Shown: one piece after another, positions 10,336 to 17,842 of the stretch | Position numbering within the stretch: position 1 is the stretch's first letter | How the letters are laid out: each line of letters opens with the position of its first letter | Position numbers and translations under genes: made by a program | The notes under the pieces: generated by a model | Seen by the model: the letters and a program-made list of their open reading frames with translations, nothing else | Database searches by the model: none | Told to the model about the DNA's origin: nothing | NCBI GenBank assembly: GCA_020160975.1 | Contig: JAIUPJ010000001.1 | Location: 930,001 to 962,000, forward strand | Length of the DNA stretch: 32,000 nucleotides | Reading direction: 5' to 3' | Source: Candidatus Saccharimonadota bacterium | GTDB lineage: Bacteria; Patescibacteriota; Saccharimonadia; Saccharimonadales; Saccharimonadaceae

Positions 10336-12852
10336 CTATAGCTGTTTTAGGCGCTCGCAGACAGCTTGCTGGTTCTTTTCGATGAGATCGACGCGGCCCT
10401 GAAGGTCGGTGATGCCCATTTCAATCACTCGCTTGAGGCCTATGTTGTGGAGCATTGGTGTGAAGAAATCGGTGTATTCCTGGAGCTGTCGGCGAGTCAT
10501 CAGGAATTGCCCGGCGTACCGGGGATAATAATCGTAGCTCTTGTCGCTGCCAAAAGTTTTTTCAATCCACGTCCAATTATCGCGTAGCCATTGCCAGGTA
10601 CGTTCCCGGGCATGCCGGTTGATCAGCATGTAAATAAACCAATAGGTTGTGTCTTGGGGGCGAATCAGCTCGGTGTTTGTCAGCATGCCAAGCACCCACT
10701 CGATGCTGGCTCTATCCTTGACGCAAGTAACCGCTCCGCGAATATCCTCTTTGAGATCGGGCGAAACTTCATGCTGGTAGCGCTCCATCAGCGAGGTCAG
10801 GAGCTCGGGGTTCTCACCATAGCGCACATCGACGCCAACCAGTAGCCCGCGCAGCTCGGGGTCAAGTGTCTCTAGTGGTTGGGCGCGAGCGCGGCGAATC
10901 GCTTCGGTGATTACCGCTTGATCCTCGCTGTAAATCATCTCGGTAATCATGCGAGTACGAAGTTTAATGTCGTTGTCCGATTCGTTGTCTCGCTTGTCCC
11001 AGCCGAGCCGCTCGAACTGCGTGCGAGCAAGTTCGCCGACAAAGGTTCGTAATTTTTTCTCTGCTACCTGGTCGTTCTCAATAAATTTCTTGAGTTCGTT
11101 GATTGCCATCACGATCGCATCCCAGACTTGCTCTTCAGATTCGTTTTGATACGCACCGAGGATGTCGATTAATGTCGAAGGATGAACCTCGCCGCCGCGA
11201 ACTAATAGAATCTGCTCGTTGAGGAGCTGGAGGCGTTGAGCGGTAGTGAGCTCGCCGCGTTGAAGTCGATCCAGTAGTGCCGCCAGAAGCGCTTCGTCAT
11301 AATGGGTGATAAAGTGTGCGCTATTGTGTTGGTTGAGGAGAAGCGAAGAGCCAGTATAAGTAACGACAGCTTCCCTAGTGTCGAGCAGAGTCGGAACTTC
11401 GGGGCTTTCGGCCTCGAGCGGAATCGGCCAGAGCTGGTCCCTAGAGTTGTGAGGCCCGATGAAGAACTGGGATTGGCGAAGCGTCAATTCATTGTTATCG
11501 AGATGGGCTGTCACAACCGGGTAGCCTGGTTGTGAAATCCAGGCTTTCATGAGGCTGCCAATCGCTTTGCCGCTGGCGGCATCGAGACAATCCCATAGAT
11601 CTGTTTCGTCGGTGTTTTGGTAGGCAAATCTGGTGAAATATTCTTTCAGCCCGGCGCGAAAGGCGTCTTCGCCAATGTACTCCATCATCATACGTAATAG
11701 TCGTGCGCCTTTGCTGTAAACAATCGCGCCATCAAAAATTGACTGAATCTCATCCGGATGGTGAACGTCGGTCTGCACTGATTGGACACCGTCAATCGCA
11801 TCACGGCGAGCTGCCATGACAGCCGAACCGGCATCAAAATCTAGCCAAACGTTCCAGTCTGGGTGAAGGGCGTTGGGTGCGATATTCTCCATGATACTGG
11901 CAAAACTTTCATTGAGCCAGAGGTTGTTCCACCATTTCATAGTGACGAGATTGCCAAACCACTGATGGCTGAGCTCGTGAGCGATGACAGCACTGACGTA
12001 TTGACGAGCATTGATACTGCTGTGGGTTTTGTCGACGATGAGGGCAGTTTCGCGGTAGGTGATAAGCCCCCAGTTCTCCATGGCGCCGGCACTAAAGTCT
12101 GGTACTGCCACATGATCAGCCTTGGGCAGCGGATACGGTACGCCAAAATAATCATCAAAAAACTCGATGATCTTGACAGCTTCTTCGAGGGCAAATTGCA
12201 GACTTTTACTTTTCTGAACGGGGGTGGCCCAGACTGTGACCTCGACTCCCTGCGACGTTGTTGCCGATGCTGACTGGAGCTCGCCCATGACGATAGCGAG
12301 TAGATAGGTGCTCATGCGGGGTGTAGTGTCAAAGGTCGTGACCAGCCTATCGTCGATAGTGTTTTGGCTTGTCGCCGGCATGTTGCCGAGCACGGCAATG
12401 CCGGTTTCTGTCGTGACGGTGACGTCAAAGGTGGCTTTGGCGGCCGGCTCATCGATACACGGAAACACTTCGCGCGCATAGTGGCTTTCAAACTGCGTTA
12501 CAAGCAATTCTTTCTTCTGCCCCTCATGCGTGAAGTAGCACGGGTACAGTCCATGCAGCGAGTCGGTGATGCTGCCGTGGTAGGTAATAGTGACCGTGTG
12601 GTCTCCTGGCGTCAGGCCATCCTGAGAAATCGTCACTTCGTCATCCTGCCCGTAGCTAAACTGTGCCGGCTGGTCGTCAATAGTAGTCTCTGTAATGCTG
12701 AGGTCGTGCGCGTGTACGGCTATCTGGCCATTGACAGACGATCCAGTGAGGATGACCGTACCTTGGAAGGTTCGCCCTGTGCGGTCGATCACGAGATTTA
12801 GATTGTAGTTGGTGGGGATAAATCGATCAAGGAGACGAGAAACTGTTTGCAT
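10336..12852 (-). CDS. pepN: Aminopeptidase N, M1 family (838 aa)
   Basis: GAMEN motif (GAMENWGLITYRE) and zinc site HELSHQWFGNLVTMKWWNNLWLNESFA (HEXXH-18-E). ERAP1-like C-terminal region. Confidence 0.93.
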   Translation of the reverse strand: MQTVSRLLDRFIPTNYNLNLVIDRTGRTFQGTVILTGSSVNGQIAVHAHDLSITETTIDDQPAQFSYGQDDEVTISQDGLTPGDHTVTITYHGSITDSLHGLYPCYFTHEGQKKELLVTQFESHYAREVFPCIDEPAAKATFDVTVTTETGIAVLGNMPATSQNTIDDRLVTTFDTTPRMSTYLLAIVMGELQSASATTSQGVEVTVWATPVQKSKSLQFALEEAVKIIEFFDDYFGVPYPLPKADHVAVPDFSAGAMENWGLITYRETALIVDKTHSSINARQYVSAVIAHELSHQWFGNLVTMKWWNNLWLNESFASIMENIAPNALHPDWNVWLDFDAGSAVMAARRDAIDGVQSVQTDVHHPDEIQSIFDGAIVYSKGARLLRMMMEYIGEDAFRAGLKEYFTRFAYQNTDETDLWDCLDAASGKAIGSLMKAWISQPGYPVVTAHLDNNELTLRQSQFFIGPHNSRDQLWPIPLEAESPEVPTLLDTREAVVTYTGSSLLLNQHNSAHFITHYDEALLAALLDRLQRGELTTAQRLQLLNEQILLVRGGEVHPSTLIDILGAYQNESEEQVWDAIVMAINELKKFIENDQVAEKKLRTFVGELARTQFERLGWDKRDNESDNDIKLRTRMITEMIYSEDQAVITEAIRRARAQPLETLDPELRGLLVGVDVRYGENPELLTSLMERYQHEVSPDLKEDIRGAVTCVKDRASIEWVLGMLTNTELIRPQDTTYWFIYMLINRHARERTWQWLRDNWTWIEKTFGSDKSYDYYPRYAGQFLMTRRQLQEYTDFFTPMLHNIGLKRVIEMGITDLQGRVDLIEKNQQAVCERLKQL

Positions 12853-12892
12853 ATATGTATTGTATCAGAGAAACACGGGGTATACTGGACTC
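12853..12892. promoter_or_regulatory. 40-bp back-to-back divergent promoter region for pepN and the nuclease gene
   Basis: Minus strand: TGaTACAAT (12867..12859), 6 nt, ATG at 12852. Plus strand: TATACT 12881-12886, 6 nt, ATG at 12893. Confidence 0.5.
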
Positions 12893-13627
12893 ATGAAACA
12901 ACGTCGCCGGCGAGTTCTGGGAGTGATATTGATTGCGATTGCAATCGCGCTGATGACGGTGAATTCTGGCCAGTCTCAGTTTGGCGCGCCAACAACGTCT
13001 ACGCGGCCGTCTGGTCCAAACATTACCGATGCGAGCCTGCCGAAAGAGAATCCCCCGCAACCAACACCGCTCGCGATCGTCGTGCTGGATACCATCGCCA
13101 TCAAGGGGCGTGCGCCCAAGACTGATTATCGACGGGTGCAATTTGGTGACGGATGGATACTGGTTGGAAACTGCGACACGCGCAACATCATTCTCAACCG
13201 CGATCTAACCGATGTAACGCTGACGGGCTGCAAGGTGGCGACAGGCAAGCTGACCGACCCGTACACAGGTAAGCTGATTGATTTTCAGCGCGGGCCCGAG
13301 GGGAGCACGTTGATACAGATTGATCATGTGGTGGCGCTGAGCAACGCTTGGCAAACCGGTGCGCAGTTGCTGACGCTTCAGCAGCGGATTGCCTTTGCTA
13401 ATGACCCACTCGAATTGCTGGCGGTTGATGGCAACGCCAATCAAGCAAAGGGCGATGGTGACGCCGCGACCTGGCTACCGGCAAACAAAGCCTTTCGCTG
13501 CCAATACGTCGCACGTCAAATTGCGGTGAAAGCTAAGTATAGTTTGTGGGTGACACAGGCCGAGAAAGAGGCTATGCAGCGGGTGCTCAGGGAATGTCCG
13601 GAGCAGACGGTACCGGGAGTGAGGTAG
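12893..13627 (+). CDS. Membrane-anchored/secreted DUF1524 (HNH-like) nuclease (245 aa from ATG 12893)
   Basis: N-terminus MKQRRRRVLGVILIAIAIALMTV (signal anchor), then a Pro/Thr-rich linker. Core IDHVVALSNAWQTG...AVDGNANQAKGDGDAATWLP matches the His-Me finger/DUF1524 pattern. The ORF-track start at 12809 (TTG) would overlap pepN and is unlikely. Confidence 0.8.
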   Translation: MKQRRRRVLGVILIAIAIALMTVNSGQSQFGAPTTSTRPSGPNITDASLPKENPPQPTPLAIVVLDTIAIKGRAPKTDYRRVQFGDGWILVGNCDTRNIILNRDLTDVTLTGCKVATGKLTDPYTGKLIDFQRGPEGSTLIQIDHVVALSNAWQTGAQLLTLQQRIAFANDPLELLAVDGNANQAKGDGDAATWLPANKAFRCQYVARQIAVKAKYSLWVTQAEKEAMQRVLRECPEQTVPGVR

Positions 13628-13775
13628 GGTTGGTCTTAGAGCTTAGAGCATAGCTAAACTGCAAAAATAACCCTTGGTTCTAAGTCTTAAGTCGTAAAAA
13701 ATTGTTTTTCGTCATTCCGGACTTGATCCAAAATTTAAAGATTCTGGTGTGCTTCTTCTCTAGAAAATCAAATCC

Positions 13776-14334
13776 TTTCTTTTGTCTCATCAAAAGAAAC
13801 AAAACCGACCACCTTTGGAGTCAAAGGTGGAGAAACCTCTGGGGCGGCTTCCCTCCGCCGGGAACAGCAACTACGACTTTCTTGGAAGACTGCGGAGTCT
13901 TTGTTCAGTGAGCAGGAACAAAGACGAAGTCCTCGTCTTGCCAGGAAAGCCGTAGTCACCGTGTCTCGGGTCAGTCCAGATGCCCCAGACCCCAGGACGC
14001 AGCAGAGCTGCTTATTTCAGCGGCTCTGCCGCAAAATACTGCAGTCACTCGTGACTGTACACCTAATGGGTCTTGGGAGCTCAAGAACCCAAGAAGACTG
14101 AGGATTGTCTTTTGGAGTCATTCACGACATTGTTTCCACTACAAACAATAGCGATACTGTAGTGGAATGCCCTTTAGGGCAGTATGTCGTGACCAAAAGA
14201 CAAGCAGAAGGCTTCTTGGCGTGAATGAGATATCCCAATGTCGTGTTTGGTTCTTTGATCGAAACAAAGAACTGTTTCCCTCGCTTTGCAGCAAAGCGAG
14301 TCGCTTTTTGCTTCTTTGGCGAAAGAAAAAGAAG
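13776..14334 (+). ncRNA. Candidate large structured RNA (class unknown; strand tentatively +)
   Basis: A dense series of perfect 6-10 bp hairpins plus nested long-range helices. No protein-like ORF. See findings for the coordinates of each helix. Confidence 0.35.
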
Positions 14335-14415
14335 TGGATTTATTCGGTTCTTTTGGATAAAGAGCTAGACTTACCCGTTTTGCAAAAAGGAGACGGCATA
14401 TAAATTTTTAATCCC

Positions 14416-14484
14416 AAAATGTCAAAACCCCACCCTCACCACACTGGCGGAGCGGGGCTCGACGCCGAGTGGGTGAGGGTGGGG
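14416..14484 (-). terminator. Very strong intrinsic terminator for a minus-strand transcript
   Basis: Extended hairpin 14428-14484. Thirteen contiguous bp (CCCCACCCTCACC 14428-14440 with GGTGAGGGTGGGG 14472-14484) plus three inner 4-bp segments. On the minus strand it is followed by TTTTGACATTTT (14427..14416). Confidence 0.7.
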
Positions 14485-14488
14485 TGAA

Positions 14489-14776
14489 TCAGAGGGCTGC
14501 TTGATACGCGCTGTCGGACGTCTTGATGAACCAAGGCCTCCAAAGCGGTAGTAGCGGTAGTTTCCTCAAGACAAGTGTCACTGGGTAGTGGCGGCTGTCA
14601 GCTGAGCTTGTCCCTACAGATCCCCACATGTGTCTTTGTCTGCGCTTGTAGATGAAGTGCACAGCAGGGCTCTTCGAGGTTCCTTTTGTGCGTTCATGCC
14701 GCTGCACTTGAGTGATCGTGCAGTTGGAGGCGACGACGACGACTTCCATTGTGCGAGTGATCACAGCATCTCCCAT
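14489..14776 (-). CDS. Doubtful 95-aa very basic ORF, or the body of a ~390-nt non-coding RNA, inside the minus-strand unit
   Basis: It is bracketed by a consensus promoter and the terminator. However, it lacks an SD, its composition is Arg/His/Trp/Cys-rich and unlike the neighbouring proteins, and I recognise no motif. Confidence 0.3.
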   Translation of the reverse strand: MGDAVITRTMEVVVVASNCTITQVQRHERTKGTSKSPAVHFIYKRRQRHMWGSVGTSSADSRHYPVTLVLRKLPLLPLWRPWFIKTSDSAYQAAL

Positions 14777-14811
14777 GATTGAGTGTCCAAAAACCAAAAA
14801 CTTCCATTTTA

Positions 14812-14840
14812 ATTATGACAAAACTAACTATATTTGTCAA
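14812..14840 (-). promoter_or_regulatory. Near-consensus sigma70-type promoter firing leftwards
   Basis: Minus strand reads TTGACA (14840..14835), a 17-nt spacer, then CATAAT (14817..14812). Predicted start is near 14805. Confidence 0.6.
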
Positions 14841-14860
14841 GTTTTGCGATGTTGTAACAG

Positions 14861-17842
<2,982 letters not shown>

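What the first reader, a model, noticed from the sequence alone, without database searches (positions are those of the whole stretch)
14416..14840. Self-contained minus-strand unit with a consensus promoter and giant terminator, whose only ORF does not look like a protein
The promoter is TTGACA-17 nt-CATAAT (14840..14812), with a predicted start near 14805. About 390 nt later lies the 57-nt GC-rich hairpin 14428-14484, followed by UUUUGACAUUUU. The enclosed ORF runs from ATG 14776 to TGA 14491..14489 (95 aa) and stops 4 nt before the hairpin. It has neither an SD nor the 6-nt leaderless spacing seen elsewhere. Its product is extremely basic with several Trp and Cys residues (…FIYKRRQRHMWGSVG…WRPWFIKTSDSAYQAAL). 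It is therefore either a novel small basic protein or a stable RNA of about 390 nt. It lies antiparallel to, and directly abuts, the hairpin-rich + strand region, so the two may form one system.
Basis: partly seen in the sequence, partly recalled or inferred. Interest (0 to 1): 0.6.

Follow-up and report, generated by a model that had tools for sequence, protein, structure and literature searches.

The report
Orphan promoter-to-terminator cassette in Saccharibacteria
This is a real, self-contained transcription unit with a strong promoter and a giant terminator, unique to one wastewater Saccharibacteria species, that sits in a slot where related species carry different small genes; it is not a folded stable RNA, and whether its 95-codon frame is translated remains open.

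Summary
TTGACA-17-(TG)CATAAT lies at 14840..14812. A 57-nt hairpin (about -50 kcal/mol, z about -7) with a U-tract lies at 14484..14416. One 95-codon frame fills the space between them.

One correction: an in-frame GUG (14764) is preceded by GGGAG at the genome's commonest SD spacing.

The stable-RNA reading is not supported. There is no Rfam hit. RNase P and tmRNA lie elsewhere. The 318-nt body folds no better than shuffles (z +1.4).

The "one system with the + strand region" idea is not supported either. That region is a multi-copy, MITE-like repeat of about 570 nt with terminal inverted repeats, and it occurs elsewhere without this unit.

New context: the DUF1524-nuclease|yhhQ junction is 2-23 nt in 17 of the 30 genus loci examined. 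In 6 of the 30, including this one, it carries a positionally conserved minus-strand consensus promoter. That promoter drives unrelated cargo, and each unit closes with a hairpin terminator, mostly a giant one. This unit is the cargo specific to this species.

Whether it codes is unresolved.
- For: the frame fills the unit (chance about 7.5%), the SD-led start, and the stop abutting the hairpin, as in cargos that are conserved between relatives.
- Against: it is a strict ORFan, its hexamer usage is non-genic, pLDDT is 46, and one population variant has lost the stop codon.

My estimates: orphan small protein about 0.45, function-less transcript about 0.3, regulatory RNA about 0.15. Interest is modest.

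Earlier scan notes list similar orphan cassettes elsewhere in this genome.

The parts
14812..14840 (-). Sigma-70-type promoter: -35 TTGACA (14840..14835), 17-nt spacer, extended -10 TGT-CATAAT (14820..14812). Predicted start is near G14805.
   Evidence: Genome-wide enrichment is 35 TG-bearing near-consensus sites against 1 in the control. The promoter is positionally conserved, back-to-back with the yhhQ promoter, in G055, G014, G002, G043 and G115.
14777..14805 (-). U-rich, unstructured 5' leader of about 29 nt. It lacks the hairpin found in the leaders of the relatives' units.
14770..14774 (-). Shine-Dalgarno-like GGGAG, 5 nt upstream of the in-frame GUG at 14764..14762.
   Evidence: sequence; spacing 5 is the commonest SD spacing, and GTG makes up 23% of SD-led starts; an SD-led in-frame start is found in 6.5% of chance ORFs and 28.7% of long ORFs.
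14489..14776 (-). ORFan frame of 95 codons from AUG 14776 (91 from GUG 14764) with stop TGA 14491..14489. The product is basic (pI 10.7).
   Evidence: The only match is a 97-100% identical cluster of 6 sequences. Hexamer score is -0.13. AlphaFold2 pLDDT is 46.5.
14416..14484 (-). Intrinsic terminator: a 57-nt GC-rich hairpin (14484..14428) plus the U-tract UUUUGACAUUUU (14427..14416).
   Evidence: A homologous hairpin terminates an unrelated SD-led 99-aa ORF in G006 (L003), with compensatory stem changes. At the syntenic, promoter-less site of G006 the hairpin is decayed.
13770..14342 (+). Neighbour, not part of the unit: a MITE-like repeat of about 570 nt with terminal inverted repeats (13773-13832 and 14278-14340), convergent with the unit.
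   Evidence: A paralogue lies at G000 637.4-637.96 kb. It is patchy and multi-copy in 13 of 104 genus genomes. Flanks differ between copies.
14844..14884 (+). Divergent yhhQ promoter (TTGCGA-17-TATACT 14844..14872) and the probable leaderless yhhQ start at ATG 14882.
   Evidence: The 224-aa form of the protein is the one carried in the NCBI record of the 971,550-bp contig.

Best explanation
The unit is this species' own occupant of a hypervariable cargo slot between the DUF1524/GmrSD_C nuclease gene and yhhQ, in a Candidatus Saccharibacteria genome of about 0.97 Mb.

A near-consensus extended -10 promoter fires away from yhhQ. Relatives carry a promoter at the same position. It gives a transcript of about 390 nt that ends at a very stable intrinsic terminator. 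Both transcription and termination are inferred from sequence.

Most likely the transcript is the mRNA of an orphan, recently acquired or recently arisen, basic protein of 91-95 aa. Translation would start at GUG 14764 (SD GGGAG) or at AUG 14776.

The function of the product is unknown. Its high positive charge makes nucleic-acid binding the simplest guess.

The adjacent + strand repeat is an unrelated mobile element that landed next to the terminator.
For: Shown:
- The promoter is of a class that is 10- to 35-fold enriched over control in this genome.
- The terminator is intact in G000 and in the G006 copy that still closes a gene (L003), with compensatory stem changes. In the syntenic G006 copy, which has lost its promoter and cargo, it is decayed. 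This indicates selection for termination wherever transcription arrives.
- The slot is ancestrally 2-23 nt wide: 17 of the 30 loci examined have gaps of 2-23 nt, and 2 more have 72-78 nt.
- In G055, G014, G002, G043 and G115 the slot carries a promoter at the same position. It is followed by unrelated cargo and a hairpin terminator, a giant one in G002, G043 and G115.
- The G014, G002 and G115 cargos are SD-led ORFs. The G002 and G115 ORFs are homologous (40% identity, E 1e-16), so cargos in this slot can be real genes.
- As in G002 and G115, the stop codon here abuts the hairpin.

For translation:
- A single frame fills the whole body (chance 7.5%).
- There is an in-frame GUG with GGGAG at 5 nt. 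An SD-led start like this occurs in 6.5% of chance ORFs against 28.7% of long ORFs.
- All six population variants keep the frame free of internal stops.
- Other orphan ORFs behind consensus promoters in this genome also have negative hexamer scores. That weakens the codon-usage objection.
Against: - Strict ORFan. phmmer against 1.84 billion representatives found only its own cluster plus two short spurious stretches. The word-index search found only 6 sequences at 97-100% identity.
- Nothing was found in 104 genus genomes by DNA or by six-frame protein search, nor in genome contigs, phages or plasmids.
- No hit in Pfam, PHROGs or PADLOC.
- The hexamer coding score is -0.13. That is below all 300 sampled real-gene windows (minimum -0.11) and inside the chance-ORF distribution (-0.30 +/- 0.31).
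- AlphaFold2 gives mean pLDDT 46.5.
- One population variant on 4 contigs has TGA changed to TGG, so the frame reads through into the hairpin.
- The listed sources of the ORF's cluster do not include NCBI. The 105-aa ORF beside the paralogous repeat does have NCBI among its sources.
- The AUG at 14776 has no SD.
- No transcript or protein data exist.
Confidence: 0.45

Rival explanations
1. The transcript has no function. The conserved slot promoter still fires and the terminator still insulates the neighbours, but the 310-nt body is decaying or junk cargo. It could be a remnant of cassette turnover or a proto-gene at most. Its open frame is fortuitous and either untranslated or under no protein-level selection.
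For: - Cargo in this slot visibly decays. The G043 unit has no ORF longer than 7 codons. The G055 ORF is frameshifted. G006 has lost promoter and body and keeps only a decayed hairpin. G119 has lost everything.
- The hexamer score lies in the chance-ORF mode.
- ORFan status.
- The stop-loss allele.
- Low pLDDT.
- An open frame this long arises by chance in 7.5% of randomisations.
Against: - The open frame, the SD-led in-frame start and the stop at the foot of the hairpin together are jointly improbable by chance: roughly 0.075 x 0.065, if the two are independent.
- If the body is as old as the hairpin shared with G006, a neutral frame should have acquired stops. This is inference, and the age of the body is unknown.
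- The promoter and terminator are both in perfect condition.
Confidence: 0.3
2. The unit encodes a regulatory RNA with little structure, either purely non-coding or dual-function. It would be made from the strong promoter and stabilised by the 3' terminator hairpin, and would act by base pairing or protein binding.
For: - The orphan promoter-plus-terminator architecture is the classic signature used to find bacterial sRNAs (established knowledge).
- 15 of the 71 near-consensus promoters in this genome have no ORF of 50 aa or more within 120 nt downstream.
- Earlier scan notes report strongly promoted ncRNAs in this genome (unchecked here).
- 6S RNA is not detected by Rfam in this genome.
Against: - The body has no excess folding (z +1.43). 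The whole unit reaches z -2.1 only because of the terminator. 6S-like or other stable RNAs are therefore unlikely.
- There is no Rfam hit.
- There is no conservation beyond the species, so it has no conserved targets.
- blastn found no extended complementarity to any other part of the genome.
Confidence: 0.15
3. The unit and the adjacent hairpin-rich + strand region are two halves of one system. Examples would be a mobile element with its cargo, or an RNA and its partner gene.
For: - Both copies of the repeat in this genome are followed by a convergent ORF of about 100 aa that has a strong promoter and a large hairpin terminator.
- In G006 the homologous hairpin (L003) is followed by a sequence resembling the left end of the repeat.
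Against: - The two convergent ORFs are unrelated, and their hairpins differ in sequence.
- The repeat occurs in 12 other genus genomes, at up to 10 places each, without the unit.
- The right flanks of full copies differ from copy to copy.
- The syntenic G006 site has the hairpin but not the repeat.
- Landing next to terminators is a common habit of small mobile elements (established knowledge) and explains the adjacency.
Confidence: 0.05

Closest known systems
Lineage-specific orphan (ORFan) small-protein genes, carried as single-gene cassettes in reduced CPR/Saccharibacteria genomes
   Same: It has its own promoter, about 90-110 codons, its own terminator, atypical and slightly GC-rich composition (54% against a genome value of 49.6%), and a narrow distribution. 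Similar orphan cassettes behind consensus promoters occur elsewhere in this genome (earlier scan notes).
   Different: Homologues exist only within one species-level population. Coding statistics are non-genic and a stop-loss allele circulates, so even its status as a gene is unproven.
Intergenic sRNA genes defined by an orphan promoter plus a Rho-independent terminator (the E. coli-type sRNA search criterion), and dual-function RNAs such as SgrS/SgrT or RNAIII
   Same: The architecture matches: a strong sigma-70 promoter, a few hundred nt, an intrinsic terminator, and an embedded ORF of uncertain use.
   Different: There is no conservation, no significant secondary structure outside the terminator, and no detectable target complementarity. 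At 390 nt filled by one frame, it looks more like an mRNA.
Hypervariable insertion hot spots and gene-cassette arrays expressed from a resident promoter (integron Pc plus cassettes, as a functional analogy only)
   Same: A positionally conserved promoter is followed by exchangeable, unrelated small cargos, each ending in a large imperfect palindrome.
   Different: No integrase was seen beside the slot (not searched genome-wide). No attC-type R'/R'' core sites are visible by eye in the hairpin. There is one cargo per genome, and the palindromes carry U-tracts and look like ordinary terminators.

Membership tests
Known stable RNA families (RNase P RNA, tmRNA, 6S RNA, any Rfam 15 family) | A covariance-model match at or near the family's gathering score | tested here: not met
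   There are no matches at gathering score in the window. At E<=10 over 13400-15100, only one weak hit (sR53, 15.3 bits against a gathering score of 49) overlaps the unit. RNase P RNA lies at 349452-349817 and tmRNA at 346173-346549 of the genome. ARAGORN finds nothing in the window.
Structured non-coding RNA (generic) | Folding energy clearly better than that of dinucleotide shuffles | tested here: not met
   Body 14489-14806 (-): -88.3 kcal/mol against a shuffle mean of -96.0, z +1.43. The antisense strand gives z -0.90.
Structured non-coding RNA (generic) | Covariation-supported helices across homologues | not testable with these tools
   No homologue exists outside copies that are 97-100% identical.
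Intrinsic (Rho-independent) terminator | A GC-rich stem-loop immediately followed by a U-rich tract on the transcribed strand | tested here: met
   About 22 bp of stem, -50 kcal/mol, z -6.8, followed by UUUUGACAUUUU. The homologous hairpin follows a bona fide SD-led ORF in G006.
Sigma-70-type promoter | -35 and -10 hexamers at 17-nt spacing, with an extended -10 TG | tested here: met
   11 of 12 positions plus TG. Genome-wide enrichment over control is shown. Promoter activity itself cannot be tested here.
Protein-coding gene | An open frame with a plausible ribosome-binding or start context | tested here: met
   A frame of 95 to 106 codons, and GGGAG followed by 5 nt and an in-frame GUG.
Protein-coding gene | Native coding statistics (hexamer and codon usage) | tested here: not met
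   The score is -0.13. Real-gene windows average 0.57 with a 5th percentile of 0.18. Chance ORFs average -0.30.
Protein-coding gene | Homologues under purifying selection | tested here: inconclusive
   Only six near-identical protein variants exist, with 5 amino-acid changes and one stop loss. No DNA of the variants was obtainable, so dN/dS could not be computed.
MITE-like repeat of the + strand (membership of the unit in that element) | The unit lies inside the terminal inverted repeats and travels with the element's copies | tested here: not met
   The TIRs end at about 14342, which is 74 nt before the unit's U-tract. Other copies of the repeat lack the unit.
Type I toxin-antitoxin locus | A small hydrophobic membrane peptide with an overlapping antisense RNA | tested here: not met
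   The product is hydrophilic and basic (GRAVY -0.26). Within the unit the scan finds no promoter-like site on the + strand. The only nearby one (14844..14872) faces away, towards yhhQ.

The most novel reading that the evidence does not exclude
The DUF1524|yhhQ junction of this Saccharibacteria clade may be a dedicated expression platform: a resident consensus promoter (with a conserved 5' leader in most genomes) and portable giant-hairpin terminators, between which unrelated small cargos are swapped by recombination. ORF95 would then be a newly captured or de novo born protein caught at the earliest stage of gene birth.
Probability: 0.12. Interest if true: 0.6.

Novelty: new member of a known kind. 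Interest (0 to 1): 0.3.

Why it matters
On its own this is one more unannotated orphan cassette in a CPR genome.

The context is what gives it some value. Within one genus, the same junction and the same promoter position carry cargo in every state:
- a gene family conserved between two genomes (G002 and G115);
- other SD-led ORFs (G014);
- a frameshifted ORF (G055);
- an ORF-less transcript (G043);
- an orphaned, decaying terminator (G006);
- this intact ORFan (G000).

That makes a compact natural series for studying how small accessory genes are gained, expressed and lost in ultra-small symbiotic bacteria. It is also a warning that strong promoter-plus-terminator pairs in these genomes do not by themselves indicate a stable RNA.

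Tried and rejected
- Known RNA families: searched Rfam at gathering score and at permissive E-values, and ran ARAGORN. Nothing was found.
- RNase P, tmRNA or 6S identity: RNase P RNA and tmRNA map elsewhere; 6S is not detected anywhere in the genome. A 6S-like rod is excluded by the folding result.
- Frameshifted pseudogene of a known protein: all six frames were inspected. tblastx and blastn against the slot cargos of 14 relatives found no match to the unit body.
- Homology to the two other small ORFs that sit next to the repeat or to the homologous hairpin (105 aa in G000, 99 aa in G006): none by BLASTP or by Smith-Waterman with shuffles.
- Phage, plasmid or defence origin: no DNA hit in the phage or plasmid collections, and no PHROGs or PADLOC hit.
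- ESM Atlas look-alikes: no usable hit.
- Leaderless 37-aa peptide from ATG 14807: rejected as the main product. The ATG lies only 4 nt after the -10 hexamer, whereas the first-stage scan note on seven leaderless genes in this window reports 6-7 nt (not re-measured here). The yhhQ starts of the relatives lie 7-9 nt after their -10.
The single metagenome contig recovered (L049) is identical over 14212-14709 and otherwise a hybrid with the paralogous repeat.
- Split alleles: a search for shorter forms found none.
- Literature: searches for Saccharibacteria leaderless mRNAs and small RNAs gave nothing relevant to this unit.

Full report
**Where it lies**

The window is bases 930001-962000 of a single-contig genome of 971,550 bp with 49.6% GC. 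A cluster member of the neighbouring YhhQ protein is named by its source as a queuosine precursor transporter of Candidatus Saccharibacteria.

The local gene order is:
- pepN (-)
- a DUF1524/GmrSD_C nuclease gene (+, 12809-13627)
- a gene-free gap of 1.23 kb
- yhhQ/Vut_1 (+)
- tgt (-), queA (-), nusA (+)

The finding occupies the right third of the gap, on the minus strand.

**Checking the observation**

The promoter is TTGACA (14840..14835), a 17-nt spacer, then CATAAT (14817..14812), with TG in the extended -10 position. In the whole genome I count 71 sites scoring at least 11/12, 35 of them with TG. The reversed, non-complemented sequence gives 7 and 1. Sites like this are therefore overwhelmingly real promoters.

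The hairpin at 14484..14428 folds at about -50 kcal/mol with z about -7. UUUUGACAUUUU follows it.

The only long frame runs from ATG 14776 to TGA 14491..14489 and ends 4 nt before the hairpin.

1. GGGAG (14774..14770) lies 5 nt upstream of an in-frame GUG at 14764. Five nt is the commonest SD spacing in this genome, and 23% of SD-led starts are GTG. An SD-led in-frame start like this is present in 6.5% of chance "shadow" ORFs and in 28.7% of long ORFs.
2. A sense frame of at least 106 open codons arises in 7.5% of Markov-1 randomisations of the body. The ORF by itself is only mildly unexpected.

**Is it a stable or known RNA? No evidence for it.**
- Rfam gives nothing at gathering score. At E<=10, only one weak hit (sR53, 15.3 bits against a gathering score of 49) overlaps the unit.
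- ARAGORN finds nothing.
- RNase P RNA and tmRNA are found elsewhere in the genome with strong scores.
- The whole unit has z -2.1, but that comes entirely from the terminator. The 318-nt body alone folds worse than its shuffles (z +1.43; 91 of 100 shuffles fold at least as well).
- blastn finds no extended complementarity between the body and any other part of the genome.

**Is it a protein gene? Unresolved.**

Against:
- The product is a strict ORFan. The word-index search of 5.8 billion proteins finds one cluster of six sequences at 97-100% identity.
- phmmer against 1.84 billion representatives adds only two short spurious stretches.
- Nothing turns up in 104 genomes of the genus by DNA or by six-frame protein search. 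Nothing turns up in genome contigs, phages or plasmids, Pfam, PHROGs or PADLOC, or the ESM Atlas.
- The hexamer coding score is -0.13. That is below all 300 sampled real-gene windows (mean 0.57) and within the chance-ORF distribution (-0.30 +/- 0.31).
- Among non-overlapping ORFs of 70-150 aa the score is bimodal, and this ORF sits on the shoulder of the lower mode.
- AlphaFold2 gives mean pLDDT 46.5.
- One allele, carried on 4 contigs, has lost the stop codon and reads on into the hairpin.

For:
- The frame fills the unit.
- It has an SD-led in-frame start.
- Its stop abuts the terminator, exactly as in the conserved cargos of G002 and G115.
- All six alleles keep the frame free of internal stops.
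- Several other orphan ORFs behind consensus promoters in this genome also score negative. Atypical usage is therefore not disqualifying here.

A rough combination of these likelihoods gives a probability of coding somewhere between 0.1 and 0.7. I settle on about 0.45.

**Context, the most informative result**

I located yhhQ and the nuclease gene in 30 genomes of the genus. The distance between the two genes is:
- 2-23 nt in 17 loci; that they form one operon is my inference from the spacing;
- 72-78 nt in 2 loci;
- 270-1255 nt in 11 loci.

In G000, G055, G014, G002, G043 and G115 the expanded slot starts, on the yhhQ side, with a minus-strand promoter (TTGAC[A/T]-17-TGnTATAAT). It sits at the same position in each genome, back-to-back with the leaderless yhhQ promoter.

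Downstream of that promoter the cargo differs from genome to genome:
- G014: an SD-led 77-aa ORF.
- G002 and G115: homologous SD-led ORFs of 111 and 134 aa (40% identity, E 1e-16).
- G055: a frameshifted ORF.
- G043: no ORF at all.

Each unit ends in a hairpin terminator, a giant one in G002, G043 and G115. Other clades carry a NUDIX gene or a weak, sub-threshold CarD-like match (PF02559, 19.0 bits against a cut-off of 23) in the slot.

G000's body matches none of these cargos.

The closest relative, G006 (yhhQ about 80% identical), keeps only a decayed copy of the same hairpin (-30 kcal/mol, z -2.4), about 55 nt from yhhQ. G119 keeps nothing. A second, intact copy of the hairpin in G006 terminates an unrelated SD-led 99-aa ORF, and it carries compensatory stem changes.

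The "self-contained unit" is therefore a recurrent architecture of this slot. The terminator is maintained where it is used and decays where it is not. The cargo turns over quickly.

**Relation to the + strand region**

Bases ~13770-14342 are one copy of a repeat of about 570 nt.
- Its terminal inverted repeats are at 13773-13832 and 14278-14340.
- A paralogue lies at 637.4-637.96 kb of the same genome. It is 73% identical over a 296-nt blastn match (77% mean column identity in the pairwise alignment), and its hairpins are kept by compensatory changes.
- It is patchy and multi-copy in 13 of 104 genus genomes.
- Its right flanks differ from copy to copy.
- The unit is absent beside the other copies.
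- The syntenic G006 site has the hairpin without the repeat.

The adjacency is best explained by insertion of a mobile element next to a terminator, not by one shared system.

In both G000 copies the repeat is followed by a convergent, strongly promoted ORF of about 100 aa with a big hairpin. The two ORFs and the two hairpins are unrelated.

**Limits**

The single metagenome contig recovered (L049) is identical to the window over 14212-14709. Upstream of that it is a hybrid with the paralogous repeat, which could be a chimeric assembly or a recombinant.

**Verdict**

The unit is real, autonomous and probably strongly transcribed. It is the species-specific cargo of a hypervariable slot.
- Orphan small basic protein gene: 0.45.
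- Function-less or decaying transcript: 0.3.
- Unstructured regulatory RNA: 0.15.
- Part of one system with the repeat: 0.05.

It is a new member of a known kind, and interest is modest. The earlier scan notes I consulted describe similar orphan cassettes and the leaderless norm in this genome. They agree with this picture, but I did not re-test them.

Noticed in passing
window 13770-14342 (+); paralogue at G000:C1:637400-637960 (L009:3400-3960): A MITE-like repeat of about 570 nt. Its terminal inverted repeats are about 60 nt long, and each contains a terminator-like hairpin. Conserved blocks alternate with variable helices that keep their pairing through compensatory changes. It is present in 13 of 104 genus genomes, at up to 10 places per genome.
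   Followed up: partly
L009:4012-4466 (-) = G000:C1:638011-638466: A second convergent unit beside the paralogous repeat. It has a TTGACT-17-TATAAT promoter with TG, the SD GGAGG, a 105-aa ORF (hexamer score 0.21; NCBI is among the sources of its protein cluster) and a 40-nt hairpin. The protein has no Pfam, PHROGs or PADLOC hit. It is known only from a cluster of 5 sequences at 97-99% identity.
   Followed up: partly
window 14844-14884 (+): yhhQ probably starts at ATG 14882 (the 224-aa form carried in the NCBI record), 9 nt after a TATACT -10 box, so its mRNA would be leaderless. In relatives the -10 box lies 7 nt before the ATG. Where the slot is empty, the -10 box lies inside the 3' end of the nuclease gene.
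   Followed up: partly
L057 (G043), L053 (G055), L042 (G014), L055 (G002), L061 (G115): slot between the nuclease gene and yhhQ: The same promoter position drives unrelated cargos. Four of these genomes share a conserved 5' leader (a GCGG...CCGC hairpin, then CGAAC, then an SD) in front of different ORFs. G043 has the promoter and a perfect 29-bp hairpin but no ORF. In G055 the ORF is frameshifted at an A-run.
   Followed up: partly
L003:1175-1570 (G006:C1:54119-54514): An SD-led 99-aa ORF of unknown family is closed by a terminator homologous to the one in this unit, with compensatory stem changes. A sequence resembling the left end of the repeat follows it.
   Followed up: partly
G000 genome-wide (e.g. 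30463+, 55645+, 143851+, 357977+, 788079+, 904184-, 797236-): 15 of the 71 near-consensus promoters have no ORF of 50 aa or more within 120 nt downstream. They are candidates for RNA genes or long leaders. Several orphan ORFs behind perfect promoters have clearly negative hexamer scores: 915059- (147 aa), 175568- (158 aa) and 458888+ (194 aa).
   Followed up: no
L049 (metagenome contig Ga0102832_1035198): This contig joins the left part of the paralogous repeat copy (99.6% identical to 637403-637890) to this locus (100% identical to 14212-14709). It is either a chimeric assembly across the repeat or a recombinant strain.
   Followed up: partly
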